Under the pieces are notes generated by a model, which saw only the letters and a program-made list of their open reading frames with translations, was not told the origin of the DNA and searched no databases. From a virus, in IMG/VR virus record IMGVR_UViG_3300032236_001304, positions 1-64,000 of that record: DNA of 64,000 nt; one strand, written 5' to 3'. Position 1 is the stretch's first letter; the number at the start of each line of letters is the position of its first letter. Below are positions 6,072 through 50,100 of this stretch, piece after piece. Both the position numbers and the translations under genes were made by a program.

Positions 6072-8411
6072 ATGGGTAGATTTGAAATTAAATTGGTTAA
6101 AAGATTAGACCCTCGTCCTAGAGTTAATATGTTTTTTACGGATGAGTTAGTAGAGTTATACGATACCTTATCATTTCAATCTGATAGTTACAATGTACGA
6201 AAATTTTTAGTTAGTAGAGAATACAATGGTAAATTAATTATACCCACCATACCTCCTGAAGTTTCTCCCTTAGTTATCTTTACTTATAATGGAAAAGGAA
6301 TACATGAGTGGTTAGTAGTAGAAGACTTAAATAAATTCAGTTCTATTACAATATTCATATTATCTACCGAAATGTATCCATTCACTTATGCTTCGAGTGA
6401 GGATGAAACTAAATATGAAAAGTGGTTTAAATCAAATAATATAAGAGTATTTTCATATTCACTACACAATAAAGATTTGTGGTATGATTATAGTTTATGG
6501 GAATTATCTTTTGATTGGCAATTAAAAACCTTAGTTAAGTTACATAAAGAGGATGAGGATAAAAAATTTAAATCAGCTAGTAAACGTATTGGTATTCACA
6601 TACATAGAAGAAATACTACACGAGATACAATTGTAAAAGGATGTATTTATCATAATGGTATAGATGATACATTACTAATAACTTTAAAAAATATTGGTGA
6701 ATTAGATATTACAGAGGATGATAGGTCTATAATAAATGAGTATTTAGATTTATATGATTTGCATACCGAAATGAAAATGCCGAAAAACATTGATAAATTT
6801 TATGAAGAATTATTTAGATTAACCCAATGTTCTCAATCAGAAATTGTAATGGAAACTTGGTTAGAAAATTGTGATCCATTATATGAAAAGTTTACAGAAA
6901 AAACTTTAAGATTATTAGTTGCCGGTAAACCCTTTATGTTTTCTGACCCGTATTCATATAGATTATGGAAAGATTATGGATTAGAAACTTACGATGAATT
7001 GTATGGTAAAGAATTAACTGATATATACAATACGTTCAGTTGTAGTGATAAAAAACTTAGACCCTATTTGTATGATTTAATTTATAGAATAAAACAATTA
7101 GCCGATTTACCTGAAGTAGAATGGAAATCTATATACACAAAAAGTTTAGAAAGGGCAGAACGTAATAGAATAAAACACAATACTATAATACCTATTTGGA
7201 AAAACATAGATAAATTAATAAATGATAGTCCACCCGTTAAACCAAATAAAAGAATATACACAACATATAATGAACAGGATAATATTTTTTCTACATCTTT
7301 ATTTGAACAAAATAAATATGAAGTAGTATACTTACAAAATTATTCAGTTAATGATGTAAATAACATATTAGATAGAGTTGATGATGGTGATATTTTTATT
7401 TTATTTGTAAATGAATTGTTTAATAAATTTAAAGGAAAAATAAATACTGCAAAAAATATAATTATAATAGCGGCAAATATGCAAGAGGTAATAGATTCAA
7501 ATGTTAAAAGAGATATTATTACTATGTATAATACAGAAAATTGTAAAGTTTATTTTTTAAATACTATTTTACAATCTTATTTTTCAGAATACGAATTATC
7601 ATTTCAATCCGGTGTTTCTACTTTTTCAAATTTATTTGGTGATATAAATTATATTGATAAAGATAGAACACAAAAATATAATTTTTTTAATCGTTCTATG
7701 AACATTAGAAGATTAAAAGTTTACGAGTTGTTAAAAAGAAATGGTTATGTTCCTGATACAGCCTATACATCGTTTGGTATGATATTATTATTATCAACGG
7801 CAAAAAGTGATATAAAATGTGCAAAAGATTATTTAGAATTAAGAAACGGAAATTTAGAGAAATATAAAGAATTGGGATTAGAAATAGATGTTGATTATAT
7901 TGATTCATTTGTAGATGAGTTTTCTTTATTAGACTACGATAGAGAATATATTAGAACTAACTTTAATGGTCCAGAATTAAGTCAATATCAATTTATAAAT
8001 AATTTAGCAAGTGAGTGTTATGCTGGATTTGCCATAGAAAGTAGTGAAGATACGTTTAGAAATCAACCAATTAAAGTTTCAGAAAAAACAATAAGATTTT
8101 GGTTTTATAGACAAATTTTCTTAACATTGCAAGAAAGAGGATTAACCTCAGAATTAAATAAAAATGGTATAGAAACATTTGAAGATGTATTTGGATTGAA
8201 TAAAAATTGGGATGAAACGGAAAACGAATTAGAAAGAATACATTTATTTGTAAAAGCAATATTATGGTTTAATTCATTATCATTAGATGAAATTAAAAAA
8301 ATATATAATACTCCACATATAAAATTAAGATTACAAAAAAATTATCAGTTTGTAGTTGGTGCATTTAATAAAGATAATCTATCATTGGAAATATTAAATA
8401 AAATAAGTTAA
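6072..8411 (+). CDS. double-domain 'TEK' family putative glycosyltransferase
   Basis: Two units: IVMET..FTEKTLR..GKPF..GLETYDELYG and AIES..VSEKTIR..GIETFEDVFG. Confidence 0.55.
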   Translation: MGRFEIKLVKRLDPRPRVNMFFTDELVELYDTLSFQSDSYNVRKFLVSREYNGKLIIPTIPPEVSPLVIFTYNGKGIHEWLVVEDLNKFSSITIFILSTEMYPFTYASSEDETKYEKWFKSNNIRVFSYSLHNKDLWYDYSLWELSFDWQLKTLVKLHKEDEDKKFKSASKRIGIHIHRRNTTRDTIVKGCIYHNGIDDTLLITLKNIGELDITEDDRSIINEYLDLYDLHTEMKMPKNIDKFYEELFRLTQCSQSEIVMETWLENCDPLYEKFTEKTLRLLVAGKPFMFSDPYSYRLWKDYGLETYDELYGKELTDIYNTFSCSDKKLRPYLYDLIYRIKQLADLPEVEWKSIYTKSLERAERNRIKHNTIIPIWKNIDKLINDSPPVKPNKRIYTTYNEQDNIFSTSLFEQNKYEVVYLQNYSVNDVNNILDRVDDGDIFILFVNELFNKFKGKINTAKNIIIIAANMQEVIDSNVKRDIITMYNTENCKVYFLNTILQSYFSEYELSFQSGVSTFSNLFGDINYIDKDRTQKYNFFNRSMNIRRLKVYELLKRNGYVPDTAYTSFGMILLLSTAKSDIKCAKDYLELRNGNLEKYKELGLEIDVDYIDSFVDEFSLLDYDREYIRTNFNGPELSQYQFINNLASECYAGFAIESSEDTFRNQPIKVSEKTIRFWFYRQIFLTLQERGLTSELNKNGIETFEDVFGLNKNWDETENELERIHLFVKAILWFNSLSLDEIKKIYNTPHIKLRLQKNYQFVVGAFNKDNLSLEILNKIS

Positions 8412-9870: not shown

Positions 9871-10281
9871 ATGGACATCAATAAGTTATTAAAAATTACA
9901 AATATGTACGCTAAAACTAATTGGAGAAAATATTTTGATGAAGGTGCCTCTCCGGCGGTTCATCAATATCTAACTGAAAATGGTGACAGATTATACCCTT
10001 GGATTCTAAAAATTATACAACAAGCAGTTGAAGATAATTTAGAAGAAGTGGCATTGATTAAGTTCACCGATTCTAAAATGTTTGCTACTATCGATAAGAG
10101 TGAGTATAAGGACCTCCTAAATAAAATGATGGAATACTTTATAGAAAAAGAGCAATACGAACAATGTGGAGCTATAAGGGATTTAATTGTATCTATCGAT
10201 AATCCACCTCAACCTAAACCTAAAAGGAAATATACAAAAAGAAAAAAAGTTACAGATGATTATACAAACACAAATATTTGA
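9871..10281 (+). CDS. protein with C-terminal UvrB/UvrC-like motif
   Basis: FIEKEQYEQCGAIRD resembles E.YE.AA..RD. Confidence 0.55.
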   Translation: MDINKLLKITNMYAKTNWRKYFDEGASPAVHQYLTENGDRLYPWILKIIQQAVEDNLEEVALIKFTDSKMFATIDKSEYKDLLNKMMEYFIEKEQYEQCGAIRDLIVSIDNPPQPKPKRKYTKRKKVTDDYTNTNI

Positions 10282-10918
10282 TAATATACTTTCTGTTGAA
10301 GAACAAGATATTTTATTAGAGTTTATGGAATCCGATTATAAAAATTGGACATTTTTACCATATATTTCTTTGGATGAAAAAGATGCTAAGATTGCAATTG
10401 ATGAAGGAATACTAAAGCAATTCCCAGCATATACATTTGATATTACAAAATCAAATTCATTAAAATATGAAAATATATTTAATATTTTGAAAAAAATAGA
10501 ATCAAATGTATGTAAAAATATAGGGGTTAAATTTCAACAAAATTATAGATATAAACTAAATTGTCAACCACCAATAGATAATTATACGATTGATGAATTA
10601 TATAAAAATATTCATTATGATAGACAAACTCAACATATGGTAATACTCTATTATGTTAACGACAGTGATGGCGATACTTTACTTTTTAAAAATAAAAGAG
10701 GACATGATGCACCTGCAAATAATAAAACAAAAAAAGAATGTCAGGATGGTATATTTGACAACGTAGAAATAATACAATCAATTACACCAAAGAAAGGTAG
10801 GGCAGTGATATTTGATGGAACATCATTGCATACGGCAGGTTGGTCTAATACGCAAAATAGATACGCGGTAAATCTAAATATAATATTAGAAAATAATAAA
10901 AAAACAAATTTAATATAA
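10256..10918 (+). CDS. 2OG-Fe(II) oxygenase
   Basis: HYD..LYYVNDSDGDT..FDGTSLH..R; probable start ATG10256 (MIIQTQIFDNILS). Confidence 0.8.
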   Translation: MIIQTQIFDNILSVEEQDILLEFMESDYKNWTFLPYISLDEKDAKIAIDEGILKQFPAYTFDITKSNSLKYENIFNILKKIESNVCKNIGVKFQQNYRYKLNCQPPIDNYTIDELYKNIHYDRQTQHMVILYYVNDSDGDTLLFKNKRGHDAPANNKTKKECQDGIFDNVEIIQSITPKKGRAVIFDGTSLHTAGWSNTQNRYAVNLNIILENNKKTNLI

Positions 10919-10922
10919 AATT

Positions 10923-11459
10923 ATGACAACATATATACCGAATCTTTTAACAAAAGAAGAATGTGAACATTTAGTAAAAGAATTTGACAATGAAAAAAAT
11001 AAATATCCAAACGGAGATGATACAAGTGACTTAACAGGTAATTCACTTGGATATTCAAGTAAAAATAATGAATTTAACAAATATTTAAATAAATTAAAAC
11101 CAAAAATATTGGAATTTTATCCTGAAAATACTGACTTGGCCAATGTCAACACATATGTTAGAGAGTATTTGAATAATTCAAAATTGGGTAGACATATAGA
11201 TAGAATGGATATTGGTGCAACGCTTTCATTATGTTTGGAATTTAATATAAAAAATGAATGGCCATTGTGTGCTGAAATAGAGGGAGAGGCAAAATGTTTT
11301 AATTTAAATGTTGGAGATGGATTATTAATGACAACCGCATATAAAACACCACATTGGAGAGATACAATGTTTTGTGATGAAAATGAAAGAGTAGTTCAAC
11401 TTTTTATACATTGGAAAGAAACCGAATATGTAACTAAAAAAATAAAAACAATACTATAA
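10923..11459 (+). CDS. 2OG-Fe(II) oxygenase
   Basis: REY..LGRHID..GDG..HWR..VQLFIHW. Confidence 0.8.
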   Translation: MTTYIPNLLTKEECEHLVKEFDNEKNKYPNGDDTSDLTGNSLGYSSKNNEFNKYLNKLKPKILEFYPENTDLANVNTYVREYLNNSKLGRHIDRMDIGATLSLCLEFNIKNEWPLCAEIEGEAKCFNLNVGDGLLMTTAYKTPHWRDTMFCDENERVVQLFIHWKETEYVTKKIKTIL

Positions 11460-11460
11460 A

Positions 11461-11994
11461 ATGGTAACAAAATATGAAAATGTATTATCGGATGAGTTAT
11501 ATATTGAAGTAATCGAATATGTTAATAATATTATAAAAAATAAAAAAACAAAACTTACATCTTCTAATTTAGAATGGGATGATAAGCTTAAAGGAAATAG
11601 TGAAGCAGTTTTAAGATATGAATTTGATAATAGTGATTCATTAATTTTTAAAAAAATAAAAAAAGAACTAGAAAATAAAATTCCATATTTTATACAAAGA
11701 ATGGTTTTACATTTGTGGCCTAATTTAAGTTATATAACTTGGCACGATGATAGTCAATCTACTGCCGCATTAACTTTATATTTGAATAAAAATTGGGATG
11801 ATAATTGGGGTGGTTATTTAATGTACAAAGAAGATAATGAAATAAAGGCAATTAAACCGGAAAAGAATTTAGCAGTTTTACAAGAAAATAAAGTTGGACA
11901 TTGTGTAACAACAATTAATATGGGAGCAGATACTAGGATATCATTACAATTTTTTTTAAAGCAAAATTTAAAAAAAATAAAAACATTACTTTAA
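11461..11994 (+). CDS. prolyl-4-hydroxylase-like 2OG-Fe(II) oxygenase
   Basis: WHDD..LYLNKNWDDNWGG..HCV..RISLQ. Confidence 0.85.
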   Translation: MVTKYENVLSDELYIEVIEYVNNIIKNKKTKLTSSNLEWDDKLKGNSEAVLRYEFDNSDSLIFKKIKKELENKIPYFIQRMVLHLWPNLSYITWHDDSQSTAALTLYLNKNWDDNWGGYLMYKEDNEIKAIKPEKNLAVLQENKVGHCVTTINMGADTRISLQFFLKQNLKKIKTLL

Positions 11995-12021
11995 TCTATT
12001 TAAATTAATAAAAAATATAAT

Positions 12022-12600
12022 ATGGCATTTACACATATAGAAATACCAAATTTTTTAACAAAAGAAGAATGTAATAAAATATTAGATTTTTCTTTAAATA
12101 ATTTAGAATTAAAACCAGGAGTAACTGGTCCAACTGGGGAATTATCAAAATATAGAAAATCAAGTATTGAATTATATCCGTATTATAATAAATTTCCATT
12201 TTTATTAGAAAAAATAAGTAAAGTAGTTGATGAATATATAAATGTAAAAGGACATGATTTAGAATATAGAAAAGAAAAATTTCAATTCACACAATATAAA
12301 GTAGGTGAATATTATAATTGGCATGGGGATAGAGAACCCGGTGGTAAAAATGATATTTTAATTTCAGGTCGTTATTGTACTATTGTTATACAATTAAATG
12401 ATGAATATAATGATGGTAATTTAGAATTGGAATTATTTAATGGAGAGCATGTAATAGTTGAAAAAGGAATAGGTAATATGGTTATATTTTTAGCTGAACT
12501 TAAACATAGAGTAGTTCCAGTAAGTTATGGTGAACGATATACCTTAGTAAATTGGATAGGTATTAAACCAAAAGAAAACTATAAAAAAACATTAATATAG
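12022..12600 (+). CDS. PKHD/P4H-type 2OG-Fe(II) oxygenase
   Basis: QFTQY..YNWHGD..QLND.Y.DG.L..HRVVPV..GERYTLVNW. Confidence 0.85.
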   Translation: MAFTHIEIPNFLTKEECNKILDFSLNNLELKPGVTGPTGELSKYRKSSIELYPYYNKFPFLLEKISKVVDEYINVKGHDLEYRKEKFQFTQYKVGEYYNWHGDREPGGKNDILISGRYCTIVIQLNDEYNDGNLELELFNGEHVIVEKGIGNMVIFLAELKHRVVPVSYGERYTLVNWIGIKPKENYKKTLI

Positions 12601-12656
12601 TTTAGGTAAAATTAAAAAGTAGATATTTATATTAAAATAATAAAAAGAATAATAAT

Positions 12657-14156
12657 ATGAGAACAGTATTAATAGGTTCGGATTTTATGTATGATTCCAA
12701 TGGTAATTTAAAATTATTGGAAATAAATACAAATATAACTTGGGAAGGTTTGATGAAAGTTGAAGAAACCGCTGATATATTTGATTTAACAGGTTTAGAT
12801 ACTTTTGTTAAAACTAATAATTTTAGTCAAATACACTATGTTGGTGATATTGTAGATTTAAGTAATTTATTAAAATCATATTGTGATGAAAATTCATTAT
12901 TATATTCTTTTTATCATGTAGGTGGAGATGCTTTAACCGTTCCATATATTGAAGATGCGGAAGACATATTAATAATAAGAAGTGCATATGATACAACTGC
13001 ATTAGTAGATGATACATATTGTGCTGATAAGATTAATTTTATGAATCTTATTAAAAATGAATCATTTGGTTCTCAATTTGCTGTAATTAATGATAATAAT
13101 ATTTTACAAAACAATATAACAGAAATTATTGATAATGGAATTCATCCAAATTTTATTTTAAAAGCAAGTAGCCCTCATTATGATGTTGAGGTATATCCAA
13201 AAGTATTTAAAGTAACAAACCAAACTGAATTAGATACTTTAATTGCAAATAATGTTACAAATGAGTATTTCTTAATGCCATTTTATCTTAATACAAATAA
13301 AACATATAATGGACACCTTGAAATTATAAGAAGCTATAATTTATTAGTTCCACCAAATTTAGAATCAATTCAAATTGGACAATATACTAAATTAAACGAA
13401 AATATATTATTAGATAATGTTACATATAATGAAACAACATTTGAAATTGATGCAATGTATAGAGATAGTTATGTATCAGTTCAAAAAATGTCAGCATTAC
13501 CAAAGGTATTAGATACCGATTTAATTGAAATGGCAGATGGTACATTTAAAACTCCAGCTGAATTAGTAGTAGGTGATTTATTAAAAACAATAGATATTCC
13601 AAATCCTAATAATGAAGATACAGCAAATCCTACTATGAATTATGGTATTACATATGATACATTTATTGGTGGTACAAATTATTCATCAAAACCATTATTA
13701 GCTAAAAAACAAATTAATTCATTTGTAGTAATAAATACTATTACATTTGATGATGATACTAACTGGTATGATGCTGAGTTTTCTTCGTATTTAATAAACA
13801 GAAATGATAATATACAATTTGAAACTTTGATGGAATTAAAATCTGGTGATATTATGTTATTGATAGATAGTTCATCTGAAACATTAAATATTGTTGAAAA
13901 AACAATTAAATCAACACATACAACAAAACAAATTTTTAGTGGTTGGGAATTAACTGTTGAAATTCCTCACTTATTTTTAACTAAAAATCCAGAATCCACG
14001 GTTAATGCTAATTCATATGTTCAGTATGTTGCTGTTCAACACAACGCAGCTTGTCCATATGGTGCATGTTCACCTTGTAGTAATCCATGTGCAAGTTGTC
14101 TTAAACCAAATCCATATTGTGCACCTCAAAATGTATGTGTTTCAACGCATTGTTAA
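12657..14156 (+). CDS. circularly permuted ATP-grasp-like domain + Hint domain + 36-aa Cys/Pro-rich C-terminal peptide
   Basis: GSDFMYDSNGNLKLLEINTN resembles the glutathione-synthetase motif RSDYM..LKQIEINT; Hint motifs LIEMADGTFK..ELVVGD, ELTVEIPHLF and VQHN; then AACPYGACSPCSNPCASCLKPNPYCAPQNVCVSTHC. Confidence 0.7.
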   Translation: MRTVLIGSDFMYDSNGNLKLLEINTNITWEGLMKVEETADIFDLTGLDTFVKTNNFSQIHYVGDIVDLSNLLKSYCDENSLLYSFYHVGGDALTVPYIEDAEDILIIRSAYDTTALVDDTYCADKINFMNLIKNESFGSQFAVINDNNILQNNITEIIDNGIHPNFILKASSPHYDVEVYPKVFKVTNQTELDTLIANNVTNEYFLMPFYLNTNKTYNGHLEIIRSYNLLVPPNLESIQIGQYTKLNENILLDNVTYNETTFEIDAMYRDSYVSVQKMSALPKVLDTDLIEMADGTFKTPAELVVGDLLKTIDIPNPNNEDTANPTMNYGITYDTFIGGTNYSSKPLLAKKQINSFVVINTITFDDDTNWYDAEFSSYLINRNDNIQFETLMELKSGDIMLLIDSSSETLNIVEKTIKSTHTTKQIFSGWELTVEIPHLFLTKNPESTVNANSYVQYVAVQHNAACPYGACSPCSNPCASCLKPNPYCAPQNVCVSTHC

Positions 14157-14188
14157 TATAATAAATTAATTTAATAAAAATACAAAAT

Positions 14189-14281
14189 ATGTCAAAAATA
14201 ATAACCGATTCAGATATCAATATAATGAATACAACATTAAACCAAGTGGGTGCATTAATTATTGCGGTTCATACTTCTTAA
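14189..14281 (+). CDS. small peptide (30 aa)
   Basis: MSKIITDSDINIMNTTLNQVGALIIAVHTS*, A-rich leader; not in the ORF track. Confidence 0.5.
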   Translation: MSKIITDSDINIMNTTLNQVGALIIAVHTS

Positions 14282-14307
14282 TAAAATAATACTAAAAATA
14301 AGTTATA

Positions 14308-14634
14308 ATGGATTTAGATTTTAAAGAAATTACCAGTGCGTGGTATAATAAATTTGTACATACAAACGAAATGAAAGAATTGGCAGATAATAGATTAAAT
14401 ATCTGCTTAGATTGTCCATCTAAATTGGAGGGTATTACAGGATTTCCATTTAGATTAAGATGTGGTGAATGTGGTTGTCCATTAAAAGCAAAAGTATATA
14501 CGGATAAAACATATTTAGATGAAGGGGGTTCTTGTCCATTAAACAAATGGAAAGATATCGAAATAGAACACTTTAAAAAATATAATAAGGCAGAATTCAT
14601 AAAACCGGACAAAAACAAAAAAACATTATTGTAA
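14308..14634 (+). CDS. Cys-rich Zn/Fe-binding protein
   Basis: RLNICLDC..CGECGCPL..K..CPLNKW. Confidence 0.7.
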   Translation: MDLDFKEITSAWYNKFVHTNEMKELADNRLNICLDCPSKLEGITGFPFRLRCGECGCPLKAKVYTDKTYLDEGGSCPLNKWKDIEIEHFKKYNKAEFIKPDKNKKTLL

Positions 14635-15321
14635 ATGTCATTATTAATTAATGATGAATTAATATGGGTTTCAACTCCCAAGTCTGCAAGTACTTCTATA
14701 TTTAATGCTTTTTTAAATTCTAAATTAAACTTAAAAAAAGTAAATGGCTGGGAGTGGAATCAAAATGCACATTTGAGTTTGAACATATTAAAAAATGAAT
14801 TTGGTGATAAAGAAAGTGTTTGCATTACAAGAGATTGGTTTCAAAAATGGATTAGTGCGTTAAATTATATTTGGGATGTTATTGAATATTCTACTCCATT
14901 TGAAACAATATGTAAATGGGAAGAATTAGATAATACTTTTATATATAAACTATTTGATGAATCTTTTTTAAATACATTACATTTTTGCAGTAATGAAGGT
15001 TTAATGGTTTGTTTTCGTAAAATATTATTAAATCCAAATAATTTTACAGATAAGGATTATGAACCTTGGTTTAGAATGATGGGGTTGTTAATTTCAGAAA
15101 AATATTACAAAAGTAATCAAAAATGCACTTACGAATTTGATATTAAAGATATTGATAAATTTATCAATTTTATTGAAAATAGATTTGGTGAAAAACTTGT
15201 ATTAGAAAATACAAATAAATCAACAAGAAGAGAAAATAAAATAATCTTAAATGATGAATTAAAACAATTTGTTTGGGATAATTTTGAAAAAAGATTTGAG
15301 AAAACAAATCATTTAATATAA
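14635..15321 (+). CDS. sulfotransferase family protein
   Basis: PAPS-binding loop STPKSASTS and ITRD..KWISA. Confidence 0.7.
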   Translation: MSLLINDELIWVSTPKSASTSIFNAFLNSKLNLKKVNGWEWNQNAHLSLNILKNEFGDKESVCITRDWFQKWISALNYIWDVIEYSTPFETICKWEELDNTFIYKLFDESFLNTLHFCSNEGLMVCFRKILLNPNNFTDKDYEPWFRMMGLLISEKYYKSNQKCTYEFDIKDIDKFINFIENRFGEKLVLENTNKSTRRENKIILNDELKQFVWDNFEKRFEKTNHLI

Positions 15322-16581
15322 ATGAAAAATACAAATATAATAATATATGTTCATCATTATTATTGTGATTCATTATTATATAAATTAATACATAATACTA
15401 GCGATAAACAAATTTATATAGATGATACTAAAATTGGATATGTAATTTGTAAATATAAAAATATTTCAATTAAATTAGTATTTAATCCAAATATACACGA
15501 TGCGAGTGATGGCTATCATTTAATTGATTTTTATACAACAAAAAAACAAAAATTTATAGATACAAAATACAATAATATTGAATTAGATTCTATAAACAAT
15601 TTAGATGATTCAATTTCGGTAGCAAATGTTATTTATAATAATATCAAAGATAAAAAAGATTGGATTGTACTTTTTTTAAGAACAGAAAAGTTATTTTATA
15701 AATACGAGAACAAATTAAATGATATAAATTTTCTTAAAATAGAAAATTCATTAGAACAATTAAAAAATCATAAAATAATATCGGATAATTGCTTTTTGAA
15801 TGATATCATTGAAGTTAGATATCCAAATTATTATTTTGCATTTACTAATACAATATATCAATGGAACGAAATGATTGGTATTAGATGGTATTATGAATTT
15901 AATCAAATTTATAATAATTTAAATTTTGAGTATAATATAGGGTATTCAGTAAGAAATTTAAAAGAACATAGAACAAAATTATTAATAGAATTATCAAAAC
16001 TAAAAATTAATAAATTATTTTTAACTAAAAGTGATACTGCACAATATGGTGAATACTTTAAAGAACTACCACTTTTAACAAATATAACTACAAATTCAAC
16101 AATAGGAAAAGAAGATTTTGATAATTTAAAATATATACAATTTTCATTTAATATTGGATTAGATTTATTTTTTAGAATTTTTTCAAAATCAAAAATGCAA
16201 ATATTAGATGAAAGTTGGGCATGGTCAACCGGAGATTTTACATCACAGTATTTATCAGAAAAAACAATTGGATTAATAATGGCAGGCATACCATTTATAT
16301 CAATACATCCATATCCATTAGAATTGTTAGAAAAAATTATAGGAATTAGAGAACATCCATTTAAAAAAGAATCAATTTATATAAAAGGAAATCCGGTTAA
16401 AACTGCCAATTTTATTAAAACTTTTATGGATGATTTTGAAAAAAATTATATATTGTGTAAAGATTGGTTAGATGAATGTAGAGAATTATTTTTAAATAAG
16501 ATAAACACAGAAAATTCTTTGTTAGATTTAATGCTTATTTCTTTTAAAAAGGAAAATAACGTAAGTATTAAATTATTATAA
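15322..16581 (+). CDS. 'TEK' family putative glycosyltransferase
   Basis: ILDES..YLSEKT..AGIPFI. Confidence 0.55.
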   Translation: MKNTNIIIYVHHYYCDSLLYKLIHNTSDKQIYIDDTKIGYVICKYKNISIKLVFNPNIHDASDGYHLIDFYTTKKQKFIDTKYNNIELDSINNLDDSISVANVIYNNIKDKKDWIVLFLRTEKLFYKYENKLNDINFLKIENSLEQLKNHKIISDNCFLNDIIEVRYPNYYFAFTNTIYQWNEMIGIRWYYEFNQIYNNLNFEYNIGYSVRNLKEHRTKLLIELSKLKINKLFLTKSDTAQYGEYFKELPLLTNITTNSTIGKEDFDNLKYIQFSFNIGLDLFFRIFSKSKMQILDESWAWSTGDFTSQYLSEKTIGLIMAGIPFISIHPYPLELLEKIIGIREHPFKKESIYIKGNPVKTANFIKTFMDDFEKNYILCKDWLDECRELFLNKINTENSLLDLMLISFKKENNVSIKLL

Positions 16582-25197: not shown

Positions 25198-25918
25198 AAA
25201 GAAAAAAGACACCCGTTATTTTACGGAGCAAACAGAAGCAGCTATTATCGCATATAATAAATCCGATAATCAATTAGAAAGAAATAAATTATACGCTGAA
25301 CATATTCATTATTCATTTTATAAGTTAGCGGAGAACGTATTAAATACTTGGGGATTTACATACTTTGATGATGATAAAGAGGATATTAAACATGAAGTAA
25401 TATCATTCCTATTAGAAAAAATACATAAGTTTGAAGAGGGTAAGGGTAAAGCATTTAGTTATTTTACTATTGCAGCTCGTAACTATCTTATATTAAATAA
25501 TAATGCAAATTATAAAAGATTTAAAGCAACATCACAATTAAGTGTAATGCCAGATAGTTGGGATTTAGAAAATGATTTTAAACAAACGGCACACAATGAA
25601 GAATTTAAAACATTTAATGAACGAATGTTACAATATTGGGATTTAAATCTTAATAGAGAATTTACAAAGAAAAGAGATATTCAAATTGCAGATGCTGTTT
25701 TAGAATTATTTAGAAGAGCAGAGTATATTGAGTCATTTAATAAAAAATCGTTATACTTATTGGTGAGAGAAATGACAGGTTATAAAACACACTATATAAC
25801 TAAAGTTGTTTCTAAAATGAAAGAAACTCAAATGAAATTGTATTATCAATTTTTAGATGAGGGGGATATTACACAAGAATCTAAAGATCCATTTTGGAAA
25901 AGAGTAATTGTTAAATGA
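25190..25918 (+). CDS. phage sigma factor, T4 gp55-like (late transcription)
   Basis: RYFT.., KIHKF..KAFSYFTIAARN resembles the gp55 region-2 motif F(A/S)YFT. Confidence 0.65.
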   Translation: MGRKKKDTRYFTEQTEAAIIAYNKSDNQLERNKLYAEHIHYSFYKLAENVLNTWGFTYFDDDKEDIKHEVISFLLEKIHKFEEGKGKAFSYFTIAARNYLILNNNANYKRFKATSQLSVMPDSWDLENDFKQTAHNEEFKTFNERMLQYWDLNLNREFTKKRDIQIADAVLELFRRAEYIESFNKKSLYLLVREMTGYKTHYITKVVSKMKETQMKLYYQFLDEGDITQESKDPFWKRVIVK

Positions 25919-27609
25919 GAATATTAGGAATATCAGCTTTTTATCACGATTCAGCTGCAGCACTTATTGTTGATGGTAAAGTATTTTCAGCACAAGAAGA
26001 AGAAAGATTTACAGGTATAAAACACGACCAAAGATTTCCCATTAATTCTATTAAGTGGATTTTAAAACAAAATAAACTTAAGATTAATCAAATAGATAAG
26101 ATTGTTTGGTACGAAGATCCTAAAAAGAAATATGAAAGATTTAAGGAACAATACCATAAATATTTTCCTAAAACTTGGAGATTAACTAAAAAATTATTAA
26201 CTTGGAAATCTAATAATGATATTGATTCTATTATTAGAAATACTTTAGGTTATAAAGGTAATATAGAATATGTAGAACATCATCTTTCTCATTTAGCATA
26301 TTCATTTTATACATCACCATTTACCGATGCACATTTATTTTCCGTTGATGGAGTTGGTGAAAACGAAACAGCAGTATTAGGTTTAGGTTTAAAAGGTAAA
26401 TACATCCAACAATTAGAAAGAAACTTTTTCCCACATTCATTGGGTTTATTATACGCATCAGTTACGGCATTTTTAGGATTCAAACCTAATAGTGGTGAAT
26501 ACAAAGTAATGGGATTGGCAGCATGGGGAAATGATAAAGATGTTTATAGAGAACAATTTGAAAAGCTAGCAAAACTAAACGGAAACACATTAGAATTGGA
26601 TATGAAATATTTTTCATTCCATTATTCAGAAAGAGGTATGTTTACTTCTAAAATGGCTGAGTTATTTAATATTGCACCTAGAACACCCGAAAGTGAGATA
26701 GAGCCACAATATATGGACATTGCATTTTCCTTACAAGCGCATTACGAAAGATTATTCTTTGCAATGTTAAATAAATTTCATTCACACTACCCAATGGATA
26801 ATTTATGTTTAAGTGGTGGTTGTGCATATAATGGTTTAGCAAATGGTAAGATAACACTAAATACTCCTTATAAGAATGTTTATGTACCACCTGCTCCTTC
26901 TGATGCAGGTAGTGCTATTGGTTGTGCATTGTATGTTTGGAATAAAGATGTTACTAAAATCAATATGACAAACACAACACCCTATTTAGGACCACATTAT
27001 ACTCACGCTGATTATAGAAATGCAATTGAACAATTGGTCCCAAAGGATAAATGGGAAAACACTACTAATCCAATAACACTTACTAAAAAAGTTGCTAAAT
27101 TAATTAATGATGGTGCAATTATAGGTTGGTTCAAAGGTAATAGTGAATTTGGACAAAGAGCATTAGGACATCGTTCTATTTTAGCTAACCCAACTATTCC
27201 AGATATTAAACCTAAAGTAAATAGAGTTATCAAAAAAAGAGAAGGTTTCCGACCATTTGCACCTATGGTAATTGCAGATGAAGCTAATAACTACTTTGAA
27301 ATGTTAGGACAAGAAGTTCCTTATATGAATCAGGTATTTAAAGTTAAGGATGATTTTATTGCAGGTTTACCATCAATTACTCACGCCGATGGAACAGCAA
27401 GAGTTCAGACAGTAAAAAGAGAATTTAACACAGACATATATTTCTTACTTAAAGAATTTAAAAAATTAAGTGGATATCCTATTCTACTTAACACCTCATT
27501 TAATTTAAGAGGTCAAACAATGGTATTAGACCCTGTAACAGCTATTAAAACATTTTACGATTGTGAAATGGATTATTTGGTGTTGGGTAGTTATATCATT
27601 AGTAAGTAA
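25915..27609 (+). CDS. carbamoyltransferase (NodU/CmcH/TobZ family)
   Basis: HDSAAA, EEERF, HHLSH, DGVGE, EYKVMGLA, GGCAYN, EFGQRALGHRSIL, RPFAP, LNTSFN. Confidence 0.93.
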   Translation: MRILGISAFYHDSAAALIVDGKVFSAQEEERFTGIKHDQRFPINSIKWILKQNKLKINQIDKIVWYEDPKKKYERFKEQYHKYFPKTWRLTKKLLTWKSNNDIDSIIRNTLGYKGNIEYVEHHLSHLAYSFYTSPFTDAHLFSVDGVGENETAVLGLGLKGKYIQQLERNFFPHSLGLLYASVTAFLGFKPNSGEYKVMGLAAWGNDKDVYREQFEKLAKLNGNTLELDMKYFSFHYSERGMFTSKMAELFNIAPRTPESEIEPQYMDIAFSLQAHYERLFFAMLNKFHSHYPMDNLCLSGGCAYNGLANGKITLNTPYKNVYVPPAPSDAGSAIGCALYVWNKDVTKINMTNTTPYLGPHYTHADYRNAIEQLVPKDKWENTTNPITLTKKVAKLINDGAIIGWFKGNSEFGQRALGHRSILANPTIPDIKPKVNRVIKKREGFRPFAPMVIADEANNYFEMLGQEVPYMNQVFKVKDDFIAGLPSITHADGTARVQTVKREFNTDIYFLLKEFKKLSGYPILLNTSFNLRGQTMVLDPVTAIKTFYDCEMDYLVLGSYIISK

Positions 27610-47164: not shown

Positions 47165-50100
47165 ATGAATAAATTAAAAAGAATTTATCACATTGCAGAC
47201 ATTCACATTAGAAATCTAAAAAGACACCAGGAATATAGAGAGGTATTTGATAGATTATTTAATGACATAAAAAACAGGGGAACTGAAGATTCCCTTATTT
47301 ATTTAGCGGGGGATTTGGCTCACGCAAAATTAGAAATGTCACCGGAGCTTCTTAACGAAATAAATTATTTTCTTAAGAAATGTTGTGAATTATGTCCTAC
47401 CATATTAATCGCTGGTAATCATGATTGTAATTTGAATAATGCTGGTAGATTAGATGTATTGAGTCCAATTGTAGAAGCATTAGATTTACCTAATTTAACT
47501 TATTTAAGAAATACTCAAAGTTATACCTATGGGGGTGTAAGATTTGATACTTTCTCTATTTTTGATGAGAAAGAAAATTGGGTATTTGAACCATTAACAT
47601 CTGATACTAAAAATATTGCATTGTTTCATGGACCTGTATTAGATGCAACTACTGATGTTGGTTATACAATTTCATCTCGTCATTTTACATCAGAAATGTT
47701 TGATGGATATGATTTAGCCCTATTAGGTGATATCCATAAAAGACAAACTATGATTTCACCTAAAGGTTGTAAAGTAGTTTATCCAGGTTCTTTGATTCAA
47801 CAAAATCATGGTGAAGCATTAGATAAACATGGTTATGCTATTTGGAATATGGATGATTTATCAGTTGAATATGTAGATGTTCAAAATGATTATGGTTATT
47901 ATACTTTACATGTTGAGAATGGTATAGTACCTGATGTAACTGATATGCCTCAGAAACCTCGTCTTAGAGTGTTTGTATCTAAAACCGATGCAGCAGATAT
48001 TAAGAGAGTTACTACTGAAATTAAAAAGAAATATAAAGTAGATGAGTTTACTATTACTCGTACCGACACTTTAGCTCGTTTAAGGACGGGTAATAAGGAT
48101 GGTAAGTTGAATGTAGGTAATGTGAACGATCCTCAATACCAAGCTGGTCTTATTAAAGATTACTTAGGTAGAAACTATATGTTGGATGATGAAACATTGG
48201 GTAAGATTGAGGACTTGAACAATAAACTAAACAAAAGATTAAATGATGATGATTTAGTTAAGAACATAGCTTGGAAACCAATTCGTTTTGAGTTTGATAA
48301 TATGTTCAGTTATGGAGAAGATAATATCGTTAACTTTGAAAATATGAAAGGGTTAATGGGTGTGTTCGCTCCAAACGCAAGTGGTAAATCTTCTTTGTTT
48401 GATGCATTATCATTTTGTATATTTGATAAGAGTAGTAGAGCTTTCAAAGCAGCTAACATTCTAAACAATCGTAAAACATCATTTAATTGTAAGTTAGAGT
48501 TCGATATCAATGATGAAAGATTTTTTATTGAAAGAACCGCTAAAACAAGTAAGAAAGGTGATTCAGTTAAATGTGATGTAAACTTTTGGAAAATAGAAGG
48601 TGATGAAATTGTAAACCTAAATGGTGATGAACGTAGAGGAACTGATAAAGTAATTGAATCTTATTTAGGTAAATATGAAGATTTTGTTTTAACTGCATTA
48701 TCTTTACAAGGAAACAATTCTCTATTCATTGATAAATCTCAATCAGAAAGAAAGGATTTATTAGCTCAATTTATGGGTATTAATGTCTTTGATAAGTTAT
48801 ATGACTTAGCAAGTGAAGATATTAAAGAAGTTCAGGTTTTATTAAGAAATTTTAAGAGAACAGATTTTACATCAGAGTTGGCAACAGCAGAAAGTAAATT
48901 AGAATTATTAAAAGATGATTACGAAGAATTTGAAATTGAGAAAGAACGTTATGAAGATAGACAAGATGAATTAAATGAACAAATAACTAATTTATCAGCT
49001 CAATTAGTTCCTATGGATGGTAATTTAGATATTAATGATTTGAATACCAAAAAACAACAATTACAAAATAGTTTAGAGGAATTAAAAGAATTAAGTATTA
49101 CCAAAGCTACAACTCTTAGTGATATTGTTGCTAAGGTAGTAGAACTAAAAAAATTATTAGCTGAAAAAGAAAATCCTAATGGTGTTAATATAGAAGTTGT
49201 ATATTCTAATTATCAAAAAGAACAAAAAGCATTAGTTGAAGCAACTAAAGTATATGATAATGCAAAATTACATTTAAGTTTAGCAAAAGAAAAGATTAAA
49301 CATTTGGATAATCATGAATATGACCCTAATTGTAAATTTTGTTGTGATAATACTTTTGTAAAAGATGCAATGAATGCAAAAAACACATTACCTCAAATAC
49401 AAGAGATAGTAAATCAAGCTATAATAGATTGTACTGGTATTCAACAAACATTGGATACTATGGAAGGTATAGAGGAACAATACAAAGAAGTAACGGAATT
49501 AAAAGCTAAAATACACAAAGGAGTACAAGCACATACAAATAAAACTTTAGAATTTAGTGGTATGGTTACTCAAAAAGAGTTATACGAAGCACAATTAACA
49601 GCAGTTGATTTAGATATTGAAAGATACTATGCCAACGAAGCAAACATTCAAAACAATGATTCTTTAGAGGAACAAATTGATATTAAGAAACAAGAATTAG
49701 CTGGAGTTAGTAAAGACCTAAGAGAGATAGCAACTAGATTATTAGAGTTAAATGGGCAGATAGTTCAAACACAATCTTACATTACATCAGTTACCGATAA
49801 GATGGCTGAAGCAAAAGATTTAGAAGAAAAGTTCCAAATCTACGAATACTATTTAGATGCAGTTAAAAGAGATGGTGTTTCATATGAATTGATTGCAAAG
49901 GCTCTACCAGTGATAGAAGGTGAGGTAAATAACATCTTACAACAAATTGTAGAGTTCGGTATCGTTTTTGATATGAGTGGTAAGAATGTGAACGCTAGGA
50001 TTGTTTATGAGGATCAGCATTGGCCATTAGAAATGTGTAGTGGTATGGAAAAGTTCGTTAGTGGATTGGCAATTAGAGTTGCACTTATTAATGTATGTAA

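What the first reader, a model, noticed from the sequence alone, without database searches (positions are those of the whole stretch)
10256..16581. Candidate phage RiPP-like system: an ATP-grasp/Hint precursor surrounded by tailoring enzymes
Seen: one co-oriented, visibly AT-richer cassette encodes four tandem 2OG-Fe(II) oxygenases, an ATP-grasp-Hint-peptide fusion (12657-14156), a 30-aa peptide, a CxxC protein, a sulfotransferase and a GT-like enzyme. Established: P4H-type oxygenases hydroxylate Pro and other residues, ATP-grasp ligases form amide or ester bonds (as in graspetides), and Hint domains self-cleave. Inference: the fusion is a self-processing precursor. Its released 36-aa core (8 Cys, 6 Pro, 2 Tyr, 4 Ser) would be hydroxylated, sulfated, glycosylated and possibly cyclised or ligated. 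An ATATTTAT late-type motif (12623-12630) precedes the fusion gene, so the product may decorate the virion or act late in infection. I do not recognise this architecture as a described system.
Basis: partly seen in the sequence, partly recalled or inferred. Interest (0 to 1): 0.92.

Follow-up and report, generated by a model that had tools for sequence, protein, structure and literature searches.

The report
Phage self-cleaving precursor of variable cystine peptides
A widespread group of uncultured aquatic phages carries an undescribed gene module in which a ligase-plus-self-cutting protein ends in a hypervariable cysteine-rich peptide and sits among small enzymes that all share one C-terminal tail, which looks like a new way for viruses to make modified mini-proteins.

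Summary
The 499-aa protein (12657-14156) folds with high confidence into three parts: a glutathionylspermidine/glutathione-synthetase-type ATP-grasp domain (1-278), a Hint domain (280-463) and a 36-aa, 8-Cys tail. It has no Pfam, PHROG, NCBIfam or PDB sequence match.

Relatives are numerous: 1076 protein clusters at 90% identity and 80 IMG/VR loci. None is in cultured phage records. All relatives keep His-Asn at the Hint end. None has a conserved Hint N-terminal nucleophile.

The part after His-Asn diverges completely, from 18 to 1242 aa. The small forms always have 6, 8 or 10 Cys and one conserved Lys in a C-x-K motif.

New points:
- The 30-aa ORF is a real gene, present in 80 of 80 loci.
- The six-Cys protein is adjacent in 79 of 80 loci.
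- 176 of 188 cassette proteins of unrelated folds end in a shared basic-T/S-L-I tail, against 9 of 82 neighbours.
- The number of oxygenase genes tracks the number of cargo prolines (rho about 0.75).
- One distant locus holds four invertible alternative cargos.

The sulfotransferase call is weakly supported and the GT call is unsupported. Cleavage and chemistry are inferred, not shown. I found no published description in nine literature searches. The earlier scan notes on this same genome had already listed the tail and the C-terminal-only Hint.

The parts
10256..10918 (+). 2OG-Fe(II) oxygenase 1 (220 aa from the ATG; a TTG at 10187 is also open); ends ...KKTNLI
   Evidence: Pfam PF13640 at 24.6 bits (below the cut-off of 27) and phrog_274 at E 7.5e-23. 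Tail seen.
10923..11459 (+). 2OG-Fe(II) oxygenase-like 2 (178 aa); ends ...KKIKTIL
   Evidence: No Pfam hit. phrog_2954 at E 2e-18 and phrog_61 '2OG-Fe(II) oxygenase' at E 0.0017. Relatives in 30 of 80 loci.
11461..11994 (+). 2OG-Fe(II) oxygenase 3 (177 aa); ends ...KKIKTLL
   Evidence: Pfam PF13640 at 41.1 bits.
12022..12600 (+). 2OG-Fe(II) oxygenase 4 (192 aa); ends ...YKKTLI
   Evidence: Pfam PF13640 at 42.3 bits and phrog_61 at E 5.5e-28. Relatives in 64 of 80 loci.
12624..12631 (+). TATTTATA promoter-like motif, 26 nt before the fusion ATG
   Evidence: The same motif lies about 20-27 nt upstream of the fusion start in most of 50 unique upstream regions. In the window, 9 of 15 + strand ATATTTAT matches lie 13-34 nt before ORF starts.
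12657..13490 (+). ATP-grasp ligase domain of the fusion (aa 1-278), GspS/glutathione-synthetase type, with the E-x-N motif at the N-terminus
   Evidence: VIA Z 8.5 (2io7 GspS), 8.3 (7uka YgiC) and 7.7 (2wyo GS), all spanning residues 1-278. RimK, ArgX and PurK align only from about residue 55. E22, N24, R108, D118 and R225 are invariant in 89 sequences; D9 and K169 are conserved in at least 90%.
13494..14045 (+). Hint autoprocessing domain (aa 280-463) ending in His462-Asn463; no N-terminal nucleophile
   Evidence: VIA Z 14.8-14.5 to the NpuDnaB intein, BIL2 and Hedgehog; Foldseek E about 1e-7. Asn is invariant. The penultimate residue is His in 161 of 162. The residue at intein position 1 is K, H or L.
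14046..14156 (+). Variable cargo (aa 464-499: 8 Cys, 6 Pro, single Lys in C-L-K) plus the stop codon
   Evidence: Low pLDDT of 48-63. In 142 unique small cargos the Cys count is 6, 8 or 10, and C-x-K occurs in 135 against about 34 expected.
14189..14281 (+). Conserved 30-aa peptide gene
   Evidence: A homologous 24-30-aa ORF lies next to the fusion in 80 of 80 loci L002-L081. There is one hit per locus, always on the + strand.
14308..14634 (+). 108-aa six-Cys ('CxxC') protein; ends ...NKKTLL
   Evidence: Adjacent to the fusion in 79 of 80 loci. W12, R29, C36, C52, C55, C57, K62 and W81 are among the invariant residues in 41 sequences. AF2 pLDDT 82.5 with a disordered tail. No PDB fold match; best Z 3.8.
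14635..15321 (+). 228-aa sulfotransferase-like protein (weak call); ends ...KTNHLI
   Evidence: Relatives in 47 of 80 loci. Sulfotransfer_2 matches 1 of 25 relatives at E 5.5e-5. Atlas lead.
15322..16581 (+). 419-aa protein of unknown family ('GT-like' not supported); ends ...SIKLL
   Evidence: No family hit; phrog_10670 only at E 0.0072. A relative in 1 of 80 loci.

Best explanation
This is a phage module that makes a hypervariable, disulfide-rich and enzymatically modified mini-protein from a large self-cleaving precursor.

The minimal unit is the fusion protein plus the 24-30-aa peptide. Nearly all loci add the six-Cys protein and a changeable set of 2 to about 15 small enzymes. In this window those are four 2OG-Fe(II) oxygenases, a sulfotransferase-like protein and one unknown protein.

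Proposed course (all inferred):
1. The enzymes and the six-Cys protein dock through their common flexible C-terminal tail (basic-basic-x-K/N-T/S-L/I-I/L-COOH) on the conserved N-terminal 463 residues of the precursor. That region then acts as a giant 'leader'.
2. The docked enzymes modify the C-terminal cargo in cis. Proline hydroxylation is the best-supported step.
3. Asn463 then cyclises, helped by His462, and cuts the cargo off with a free N-terminus. Splicing and N-terminal cleavage are excluded.
4. The ATP-grasp domain keeps its Mg-ATP residues. It spends ATP to form one amide bond involving the cargo, most likely at the single conserved Lys or at the new N-terminus. The carboxylate partner could be the C-terminus of the small peptide, the cargo's own C-terminus (cyclisation) or a tail.

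The product would serve as a specificity determinant in phage-host conflict, either a binder or virion decoration, or an inhibitor.

Shown here: the folds, the conservation, the tail, the synteny and the correlation.
Inferred: docking, cleavage, hydroxylation of the cargo, ligation and biological role.
For: Folds:
- The AF2 model has pLDDT 89.9.
- The Hint domain scores Z 14.8 and the GspS/GS-type ATP-grasp domain Z 8.5; Foldseek agrees.

Catalytic residues:
- E22, N24, R108, D118, R225 and N463 are invariant, and D9, K169 and H462 are conserved in at least 90% of 89 sequences sharing as little as 23% identity.
- The penultimate residue is His in 161 of 162.

Only C-terminal cleavage is possible:
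- There is no conserved C/S/T at intein position 1.
- The +1 residue is variable, with Cys in 1 of 162.
- Per passages of the intein review PMC4031507, C-terminal cleavage occurs when the terminal residue cyclises, assisted by His G:6 and His F:13.

Polymorphic cargo:
- Sequences diverge completely after HN, with lengths of 18-1242 aa.
- All 142 unique small cargos have an even Cys count: 6 in 28, 8 in 112 and 10 in 2.
- C-x-K occurs in 135 of 142 (34 expected) and there is a single Lys in 110 of 142.
- Two long cargos carry BACON domains.
- L084 has four copies of a 31-44-nt repeat encoding the AQAYISIEHN junction. Two are inverted, and each precedes a different cargo.

Synteny:
- The small peptide is present in 80 of 80 loci.
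- The six-Cys protein is present in 79 of 80, ox4-like genes in 64 of 80 and sulfo-like genes in 47 of 80.
- The same fusion-plus-six-Cys pair occurs in the most distant relatives, L084 and L106.

Tail:
- It is present in 176 of 188 unique cassette proteins, 9 of 82 conserved neighbours and 0 of 56 fusions.
- It is independent of the distance to the next gene: 23 of 23 when the gap exceeds 50 nt.
- The tail residues use several codon families, for example TCA and AGT for Ser, and TTA, CTA, CTT and TTG for Leu.
- In the own genome the tail is on 7 of 7 cassette proteins and 5 of 82 others.
- The one cyanophage oxygenase relative examined lacks it.
- The tail is disordered in the AF2 model of the six-Cys protein.

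Enzymes act on the cargo:
- Oxygenase gene count against cargo Pro count gives Spearman 0.74 (n = 41 unique cargos).
- After collapsing relatives the value is 0.70-0.76 (n = 11-20 clusters).
- Pro is the strongest positive of the 20 residues.
Against: - Nothing here shows cleavage, docking or any modification.
- The block F His that helps Asn cyclisation in inteins is present in only 89 of 156 sequences, and the usual block B Thr/His is not evident.
- Some inteins cut at the C-terminus only after the N-terminal steps (PMC4031507 passages).
- The oxygenase-proline correlation rests on 11-20 semi-independent clusters. Oxygenases were counted only by tblastn to the window's four, within truncated flanks. 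Gly and cargo length correlate negatively, so a composition or clade effect is not excluded.
- Sulfo-like presence does not track cargo Tyr (p 0.58).
- L073 has the fusion and the small peptide but no six-Cys protein and no tailed enzymes within its 5.2 kb, so docking is not essential to the core.
- Cargos of several hundred to 1242 aa do not fit a small-peptide product.
- Five tail-like ends occur outside the cassette in the own genome.
Confidence: 0.5

Rival explanations
1. Tagging or ligation machine. The shared tail is not a docking handle but the substrate. The GspS-type ATP-grasp activates the C-terminal alpha-carboxylate of each tail-bearing protein, or of the small peptide. It then joins that carboxylate to the cargo's conserved Lys or to the N-terminus freed by Asn cyclisation. 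The proteins would thereby become covalently linked to the variable Cys-rich module, which is formally like LysW/LysX or a ubiquitin-like conjugation run in reverse.
For: - The closest ATP-grasp structures are GspS, YgiC, glutathione synthetase and trypanothione synthetase. From recalled knowledge, these activate the C-terminal carboxylate of a peptide and join it to an amine.
- The Mg-ATP residues are invariant.
- One Lys is conserved in an otherwise hypervariable cargo.
- The tail always sits at the extreme C-terminus and is disordered.
- A small Cys-rich protein with a C-terminal tail next to an ATP-grasp recalls LysW/LysX. ArgX-LysW is a weak structural hit at Z 5.6.
- The minimal locus L073 keeps only the fusion and the small peptide.
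Against: - One Lys and one N-terminus per cargo cannot accept 7-15 different tailed proteins.
- Covalently tagging cytoplasmic enzymes has no obvious use.
- The LysW tail is acidic and ends in Glu (recalled), whereas this tail is basic and aliphatic.
- No complex prediction could be run.
Confidence: 0.17
2. Non-cleaving structural protein. The Hint domain is a degenerate scaffold, and the whole 499-aa protein (or its long-cargo relatives) is a virion or cell-surface-binding protein with a variable tip, as in tail-fibre tips. The neighbouring enzymes modify something else, or modify the tip without release.
For: - The N-terminal nucleophile, block B and often the block F His are absent.
- Some cargos carry BACON domains, as surface or virion binding modules do.
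- The L084 arrangement resembles tail-fibre tip switching by inversion (the analogy to phage Mu is recalled).
- A promoter-like TATTTATA motif is shared with large, probably structural genes.
Against: - Asn463 is invariant and His462 is present in 161 of 162 across sequences that share as little as 23-30% identity. That is hard to explain without chemistry at that bond.
- The repeat in L084 ends exactly at the HN codons.
- An active-looking ATP-grasp is not expected in a fibre.
- No structural-protein family matches.
Confidence: 0.15
3. Polymorphic-toxin-like weapon. The cargo is a toxin or bacteriocin-like peptide released by the Hint domain, as in polymorphic toxins, and set free at lysis. 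The conserved six-Cys protein or the small peptide acts as immunity factor or chaperone.
For: - A HINT autopeptidase directly upstream of a variable C-terminal domain is the documented architecture of polymorphic toxins (passages of PMC3482391).
- Orphan alternative cargos lie downstream in L084.
- The Atlas lists viral PT-HINT clusters among the look-alikes at score 0.92-0.93, which is a lead only.
Against: - No trafficking or secretion domain was found, and no known toxin domain appears in ten long cargos.
- The candidate 'immunity' genes are conserved rather than co-varying with the cargo.
- Pfam PT-HINT does not match.
- A lytic phage has little need for immunity.
Confidence: 0.1
4. Unrelated neighbours. 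The oxygenases and other enzymes act on DNA, glycans or metabolites. The tail is a degradation, localisation or host-hub signal that has nothing to do with the fusion protein.
For: - Phage 2OG oxygenases are common in cyanophages that have no match to the fusion.
- L073 has the fusion without any of these enzymes.
- The genome has a separate glycan-type island (earlier scan notes).
Against: - The tail is confined to the genes around the fusion: 176 of 188 against 9 of 82.
- It is absent from the one cyanophage relative checked.
- Oxygenase number tracks cargo proline.
- The cassette always sits beside the fusion although its content changes.
Confidence: 0.08

Closest known systems
Bacterial intein-like (BIL) and PT-HINT autoprocessing domains of polymorphic toxins
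   Same: A Hint fold (Z 14.7 to BIL2) sits immediately before a polymorphic C-terminal module. It ends in His-Asn, so C-terminal release by Asn cyclisation is plausible. One locus has orphan alternative modules downstream. HINT release of toxin tips is described in PMC3482391 (passages).
   Different: It is fused to an ATP-grasp ligase instead of a trafficking or filament region. There is no N-terminal nucleophile, no Pfam PT-HINT match, no recognisable toxin and no co-varying immunity gene. It is phage-encoded, and the cargo is usually a 30-45-aa cystine peptide.
RiPP pathways for disulfide-rich or ATP-grasp-modified peptides (graspetides; conotoxin- and cyclotide-like products)
   Same: A gene-encoded precursor has a conserved part and a variable core. 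Tailoring enzymes are clustered with it and the conserved part is removed proteolytically. An ATP-grasp enzyme lies in the cluster. Hydroxyproline in Cys-rich peptides is known from conotoxins (recalled).
   Different: The 'leader' is a 463-aa two-domain enzyme that would cut itself off. Recognition appears inverted: a common tail on the enzymes rather than a leader motif read by each enzyme. The ATP-grasp is of GspS/GS type, not the RimK-like graspetide type, since RimK aligns only from about residue 55 at Z 5.5. The cargo has almost no Asp or Glu (1.8% and 1.7%) for omega-ester or amide rings. Some cargos are large proteins.
Glutathionylspermidine synthetase / YgiC-YjfC / glutathione synthetase ATP-grasp clade
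   Same: These are the best structural matches to residues 1-278, including the N-terminal strand that carries E-x-N. D9, E22 and N24 are conserved. They plausibly correspond to the Mg ligands of GspS, but that correspondence is recalled and was not aligned here.
   Different: There is no sequence-level similarity. The domain is only 278 aa, it is fused to Hint, and its substrates are unknown.
LysW/LysX amino-group carrier system
   Same: A small Cys-containing protein with a flexible C-terminal tail is encoded next to an ATP-grasp ligase. ArgX-LysW is a weak structural hit at Z 5.6.
   Different: The tail is basic and aliphatic, not acidic. The same tail is also carried by enzymes of several folds. 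The six-Cys protein has no PDB fold match. The ATP-grasp belongs to another clade.
Invertible tail-fibre tip and shufflon systems (phage Mu G segment, R64 shufflon; recalled)
   Same: In L084 a constant 5' gene part can be joined to alternative 3' parts. The parts are flanked by direct and inverted copies of a 31-44-nt repeat.
   Different: This was seen in 1 of 67 loci only. No recombinase was identified in that locus. The repeat coincides with the Hint cleavage junction.

Membership tests
Inteins (protein splicing) | Hint fold | tested here: met
   VIA Z 14.8 (4o1r), rmsd 2.5, 139 aligned residues; Foldseek E 1.5e-7.
Inteins (protein splicing) | Cys/Ser/Thr nucleophile at intein position 1 | tested here: not met
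   The position aligned to intein residue 1 (about 283) is K 31, H 23, L 13, I 5, T 4, S 3 in 89 sequences.
Inteins (protein splicing) | Cys/Ser/Thr at +1 of the C-extein | tested here: not met
   The +1 residue is A 26, L 20, Y 17, F 16, G 16 and so on; S 10, T 7 and C 1 of 162.
Inteins / BIL (C-terminal cleavage) | Terminal Asn preceded by His (block G) | tested here: met
   N463 is invariant in 89 sequences; His in 161 of 162 and Gln in 1.
Inteins / BIL (C-terminal cleavage) | Block F His (F:13) assisting Asn cyclisation | tested here: inconclusive
   His in 89 of 156; otherwise M, K, R or Y. It is present in the window protein as H437.
PT-HINT (Pfam PF07591) | Match to the family HMM | tested here: not met
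   No Pfam family at E up to 0.1. There is only an Atlas look-alike lead at 0.92-0.93.
ATP-grasp superfamily | ATP-grasp fold | tested here: met
   VIA Z 8.5 (2io7), 8.3 (7uka) and 7.7 (2wyo) over residues 1-278. Foldseek E about 1e-5 to YjfC, YgiC and yeast GS. The Z values are moderate, but one clade fills the list.
ATP-grasp superfamily | Conserved Mg-ATP binding residues (E-x-N, Lys, Arg) | tested here: inconclusive
   E22, N24 and R225 are invariant, and K169 and D9 are conserved in at least 90%. Their assignment to ATP and Mg sites is by motif recall, not by a residue-level structural alignment.
ATP-grasp superfamily | Match to a Pfam or NCBIfam ATP-grasp model | tested here: not met
   No hit.
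Graspetide RiPPs | Core peptide with Thr/Ser/Lys and Asp/Glu side chains for omega-ester or amide rings | tested here: not met
   Cargo composition is D 1.8% and E 1.7%. The small peptide has Thr and one acidic residue but is conserved, not a variable core.
Polymorphic toxin systems | Variable C-terminal domain after a processing domain | tested here: met
Polymorphic toxin systems | N-terminal trafficking domain, known toxin domain and cognate immunity gene | tested here: not met
   Pfam on ten long-cargo proteins gave only BACON in two of them. The downstream genes are conserved rather than co-varying.
2OG-Fe(II) oxygenase, P4H-like (PF13640) | Score above the Pfam gathering cut-off | tested here: met
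   ox3 at 41.1 and ox4 at 42.3 bits against a cut-off of 27. ox1 at 24.6 is below it. ox2 has no Pfam hit, only PHROGs.
Sulfotransferase (PF03567 and relatives) | Match to a family model | tested here: inconclusive
   The window protein has none. One of 25 relatives matches Sulfotransfer_2 at E 5.5e-5. A profile search against PDB found nothing. The Atlas cluster share is 13%.
Glycosyltransferase | Match of 15322-16581 to any GT model | tested here: not met
   No Pfam, NCBIfam or meaningful PHROG hit. No structure was predicted.
LysW-type carrier protein | Zn-ribbon with an acidic tail ending in Glu | tested here: not met
   The tail consensus is K-K-x-K/N-T/S-L/I-I/L. There is no fold match. 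The LysW features are recalled.

The most novel reading that the evidence does not exclude
The fusion is a self-contained, ATP-driven peptide ligation device that couples two chemistries. Hint-mediated Asn cyclisation exposes an amine. The attached GspS-type ATP-grasp then uses a C-terminal carboxylate to form a new amide. The carboxylate would come from the universal small peptide, from the cargo itself, or from the tail shared by all cassette proteins. The outcome would be either head-to-tail or Lys-branched cyclic cystine mini-proteins made by a virus, or a new covalent protein-tagging system whose recognition signal is the K-K-x-K-T-L-I tail.
Probability: 0.22. Interest if true: 0.95.

Novelty: categorically new. 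Interest (0 to 1): 0.86.

Why it matters
If the model holds, phages encode a previously unrecognised way of making post-translationally modified, hypervariable cystine peptides and larger variable domains. The route has three unusual features:
- The 'leader' is an enzyme that removes itself.
- The tailoring enzymes are addressed by a common C-terminal tail rather than by a leader-binding domain.
- An ATP-grasp ligase is built into the precursor.

The family is abundant, with 1076 clusters at 90% identity, on contigs up to 335 kb. It evolves like a conflict locus, with variable cargo, a variable enzyme set and a cargo switch in one lineage, so it probably matters for host range or phage-host antagonism in aquatic Bacteroidota-type hosts.

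The parts could become tools. These are a C-terminal-cleaving Hint without a nucleophile requirement at +1, a portable recruitment tail, and a possible peptide ligase or cyclase.

The oxygenase-proline relation gives a direct, testable hypothesis for the long-puzzling multiplicity of 2OG oxygenases in marine phages.

Tried and rejected
Sequence-family searches of the fusion gave nothing: Pfam, PHROGs, NCBIfam, PDB sequences, and tblastn against 50,697 phage records.

For the six-Cys protein, fold searches gave no PDB match (best Z 3.8) and only uncharacterised phage proteins in BFVD. A tblastn search found one partial match in Roseobacter phage CRP-143, spanning three small annotated ORFs; I did not pursue it.

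For the sulfotransferase-like protein, a profile search against PDB found nothing meaningful.

I considered whether the shared tail is a DNA- or RNA-level signal, such as an A-rich leader for the next gene, and rejected it. The tail is independent of the gap to the next ORF, and its residues are encoded by different codon families.

Splicing or N-terminal cleavage by the Hint domain is rejected because the nucleophiles are missing.

A link between Tyr content and the sulfotransferase-like gene was not found.

The junction repeat was searched in 67 loci and found only in L084.

PHROG searches of genes that share the TATTTATA motif did not establish a 'late' class.

No RNA holder was listed for window 12000-15400.

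Nine literature searches returned no description of an ATP-grasp-Hint fusion with a Cys-rich cargo or of the shared tail. What I read:
- Passages only of PMC4031507, PMC7824862, PMC3482391 and PMC11118758.
- Nothing of Iyer et al. 2009 on amidoligases, because PMC3268129 is not held. That paper could bear on novelty.
- No supplements were consulted.

The docking or ligation question was therefore not tested by complex prediction, and synteny was taken from IMG/VR loci instead.

Full report
**What is in the window.**
The stretch lies in an 88,442-base IMG/VR virus record that CheckV rates 41% complete. All genes are on the + strand and GC is about 28%. A gp6-like baseplate wedge protein lies downstream.

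They are four oxygenase genes (10256-12600), a 499-aa ORF (12657-14156), a 30-aa ORF (14189-14281), a 108-aa Cys-containing ORF (14308-14634), a 228-aa ORF (14635-15321) and a 419-aa ORF (15322-16581).

Pfam PF13640 matches ox3 and ox4 above its cut-off and ox1 just below it. ox2 matches only oxygenase-type PHROG families.

The 499-aa protein, the 228-aa protein and the 419-aa protein have no hit in Pfam or NCBIfam; the 499-aa and 228-aa proteins also have none in PHROGs, and the 419-aa protein has only phrog_10670 at E 0.0072. The 499-aa protein also has no hit among PDB sequences or in 50,697 phage records.

**The fusion protein.**
I built an alignment of 89 relatives and used it for an AlphaFold2 model, which has mean pLDDT 89.9 and pTM 0.83. 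Only the last 36 residues are uncertain.

Residues 280-463 have a Hint fold. VIA-align gives Z 14.8 to the NpuDnaB intein, 14.7 to the Tetrahymena BIL2 domain and 14.5 to the Hedgehog autoprocessing domain. Many of these alignments end at model residue 463 or 464. Foldseek agrees at E about 1e-7.

Residues 1-278 match ATP-grasp enzymes of the glutathionylspermidine synthetase, YgiC/YjfC, glutathione synthetase and trypanothione synthetase group (Z 8.5 to 6.4). Those alignments start at residue 1 or 2. RimK, ArgX and PurK align only from about residue 55. The N-terminal strand carrying E22-x-N24 is therefore placed as in the GspS/GS clade. I recall that clade as permuted relative to classical ATP-grasp enzymes.

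E22, N24, R108, D118, P181, R225 and N463 are invariant across the 89 sequences. D9, K169 and H462 are conserved in at least 90%. Both domains therefore look catalytically maintained.

**What the Hint domain can do.**
- The residue aligned with intein position 1 is Lys, His or Leu.
- The residue after Asn463 is anything: A, L, Y, F, G and so on, with Cys once in 162.
- Splicing and N-terminal cleavage are therefore excluded.
- The terminal Asn is invariant, and the preceding residue is His in 161 of 162.

According to passages of the intein review PMC4031507, C-terminal cleavage results from cyclisation of the terminal residue, helped by His G:6 and His F:13. The F:13 His is present in the window protein but in only 89 of 156 relatives. 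Cleavage is thus plausible but not assured. The same review notes that some inteins cut only after the N-terminal steps.

**The family and its cargo.**
The word-indexed search found 1076 clusters at E up to 0.001. The best 120 are almost all 483-502 aa, with 50-73% identity over the full length.

The exhaustive search of 50%-identity representatives found 253 proteins. Among them are proteins of 600-1667 aa that match only residues 1 to about 463. Their sequences diverge entirely after a conserved ...IEHN.

I parsed 162 proteins, and the part after HN is 18-1242 aa long with a median of 38 aa. It is 9.7% Cys, against 0.6% in the N-part.

Among 142 unique cargos of 25-60 aa:
- The Cys count is 6 in 28, 8 in 112 and 10 in 2. 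It is never odd.
- A C-x-K motif occurs in 135, against about 34 expected from shuffles.
- 110 have exactly one Lys.
- Cargo identity is 37% (28% without Cys), against 60% for the N-part.

Two long cargos carry BACON domains.

The range of cargo sizes shows, however, that 'peptide' is only the commonest case.

**Neighbourhood.**
IMG/VR yielded 99 confirmed relatives, of which 80 loci were kept. I ran tblastn with the window's proteins at E up to 1e-5:
- The six-Cys protein is next to the fusion in 79 of 80 loci. It is usually directly downstream and lies upstream in three.
- ox4-like genes occur in 64 loci, sulfo-like in 47 and ox2-like in 30.
- The 419-aa protein has a relative in 1 locus.

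The 30-aa ORF scored in only 5 loci because it is so short. Reading the spacers directly showed a homologous 24-30-aa ORF in all 33 unique fusion-to-six-Cys spacers. A motif scan then found exactly one such ORF per locus, always on the + strand and beside the fusion, in 79 of L002-L081. The eightieth, L057, was already seen. It is a real, conserved gene.

Three further loci widen the picture:
- **L073:** this 5.2-kb contig has a ParB, methyltransferase and terminase context. It carries only the small ORF and the fusion, with no six-Cys protein or tailed enzymes in its 5.2 kb. That pair is therefore the minimal unit.
- **L084:** this is one of the most distant relatives and still pairs the fusion with a six-Cys protein and a Cys-rich cargo.
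- **L106:** this is a 248-kb contig titled as a Flavobacteriaceae MAG, at 28% identity. It shows the same pairing.

**The shared tail.**
An earlier scan note (e1-6115591) pointed out a common 'KK-T-L-I/L' ending on the cassette proteins. I tested it.

I defined cassette proteins only by homology to ox1-4, the six-Cys, sulfo-like and 419-aa proteins. The results are as follows:
- 176 of 188 unique proteins end in [TSNKQHR][LIVMF][LIVMF], preceded by Lys-rich positions. At position -4 K is 59% and N 32%. At -3 T is 46%. At -2 L is 78%. At -1 I is 57% and L 32%.
- Conserved non-cassette neighbours show this ending in 9 of 82.
- The fusion shows it in 0 of 56.
- It does not depend on how close the next gene is: 119 of 129 at gaps up to 10 nt, 29 of 30 at 11-50 nt, and 23 of 23 above 50 nt.

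Among ORFs that a tail pattern had already picked, the tail residues are written with several codon families. The tail is therefore a protein-level signal.

In the whole own genome, 7 of 7 cassette proteins and 5 of the 82 other ORFs have it. The one cyanophage oxygenase relative that I read lacks it. In the AF2 model of the six-Cys protein the tail is disordered.

A common C-terminal motif on proteins of at least four unrelated folds implies a common reader. The only universal cassette components without the tail are the fusion and the small peptide.

**Do the enzymes act on the cargo?**
In 41 loci with unique cargos and at least 5 kb downstream, the number of oxygenase genes correlates with the number of cargo prolines (Spearman 0.74).

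After collapsing loci whose N-parts are at least 80, 70 or 60% identical, rho is 0.76, 0.74 and 0.70, with n = 20, 14 and 11.

Of all 20 residues, Pro gives the strongest positive value. Gly (-0.65) and cargo length (-0.63) are negative.

This supports prolyl hydroxylation of the cargo. The clusters are few, the flanks are truncated and no tree-aware test was done. Sulfo-like presence shows no relation to Tyr.

**A cargo switch.**
In L084 the 31-44-nt stretch encoding AQAYISIEHN occurs four times. One copy is in the fusion gene, one is direct and two are inverted. Each is followed by a different Cys-containing reading frame of 69, 53, 149 or 75 aa. The six-Cys gene lies between two inverted copies.

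This is the layout of an invertible or recombining variable tip, and it marks the HN junction as the module boundary. It was found in 1 of 67 loci examined. No recombinase was evident in that locus.

**Expression signal.**
ATATTTAT is not enriched in the window: 18 matches against 34.75 expected. However, 15 of the 18 are on the + strand, and 9 of those lie 13-34 nt before ORF starts. TATTTATA sits about 20-27 nt before the fusion ATG in most of 50 unique upstream regions.

It is a plausible phage promoter element. Whether it is 'late' could not be shown.

**Reading.**
The best-supported account is a self-processing precursor system for a variable cystine mini-protein or a larger variable domain. 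It has a minimal core (fusion plus small peptide), a near-universal six-Cys helper, and an exchangeable set of tail-addressed enzymes.

I favour the tail as a docking handle on the conserved 463-residue part. The ATP-grasp would make one amide bond to the cargo, and Asn463 cyclisation would release it (confidence 0.5 for the ensemble).

The main rival reads the tail, or the C-terminus of the small peptide, as the ligase substrate (0.17). The remaining rivals are:
- A non-cleaving structural protein with a variable tip (0.15).
- A polymorphic-toxin-like weapon (0.10).
- Unrelated neighbours (0.08).

The complex-prediction tool that could have separated docking from ligation was unavailable.

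**Comparison with known systems and novelty.**
The module shares single features with several known systems: BIL/PT-HINT processing of polymorphic toxins (PMC3482391), RiPP pathways, the GspS/GS ligases, LysW/LysX and invertible fibre tips. It fails defining features of each (see Membership tests).

Nine literature searches found no description of this architecture or of the tail. The 2009 amidoligase survey could not be read.

I therefore rate it categorically new as a system. All chemistry remains inferred.

Noticed in passing
L084:9361-11075: A 31-44-nt repeat encoding the Hint C-terminal junction occurs four times, two direct and two inverted. Each copy precedes a different cargo frame, and the six-Cys gene sits between two inverted copies. 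This is a shufflon-like cargo switch in a 187-kb viral contig.
   Followed up: partly
L073:1901-3442: The minimal form of the module (small peptide gene directly upstream of a 487-aa fusion) lies between a DNA methyltransferase and a terminase-like gene on a 5.2-kb contig. There is no six-Cys protein and no tailed enzymes.
   Followed up: partly
window 8957-59109 (18 sites; e.g. 9858, 27625, 36902, 41727, 43715, 50311, 50982): The ATATTTAT/TATTTATA motif is strongly biased to the + strand (15 of 18), and 9 sites lie 13-34 nt upstream of ORF starts, including very large ORFs. It is a candidate phage promoter element.
   Followed up: partly
window 6072-8411: This is a 779-aa ORF with no family hit. 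Its relatives in other loci appear as two separate ORFs of about 428 and 396 aa, so it is fused here or split there.
   Followed up: no
window 47165-50311: A single 1048-aa ORF matches SbcD-like (residues 2-340) and SbcC-like (349-1047) PHROGs. It is a fused SbcCD-type nuclease.
   Followed up: no
window 25915-27609: This is a Nol/NodU-type carbamoyltransferase (phrog_1601, E 6.7e-124).
   Followed up: no
G000 65249-66052, 67844-69400, 79748-80611, 82459-83367 (outside the window): Four ORFs in the downstream island end in tail-like sequences (for example ...IKQTLI, ...EKRNKLI). One has a weak radical SAM hit and one a weak ConA-like hit. They may be chance matches or further tail-addressed proteins.
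   Followed up: partly
L106:7729-9795: A contig titled as a Flavobacteriaceae MAG carries the most distant module: a six-Cys protein ending ...KKNKTMI, a 540-aa fusion with a 10-Cys cargo, and a 50-aa ORF right after it. Its neighbours look phage-like, which gives a hint about the host.
   Followed up: partly
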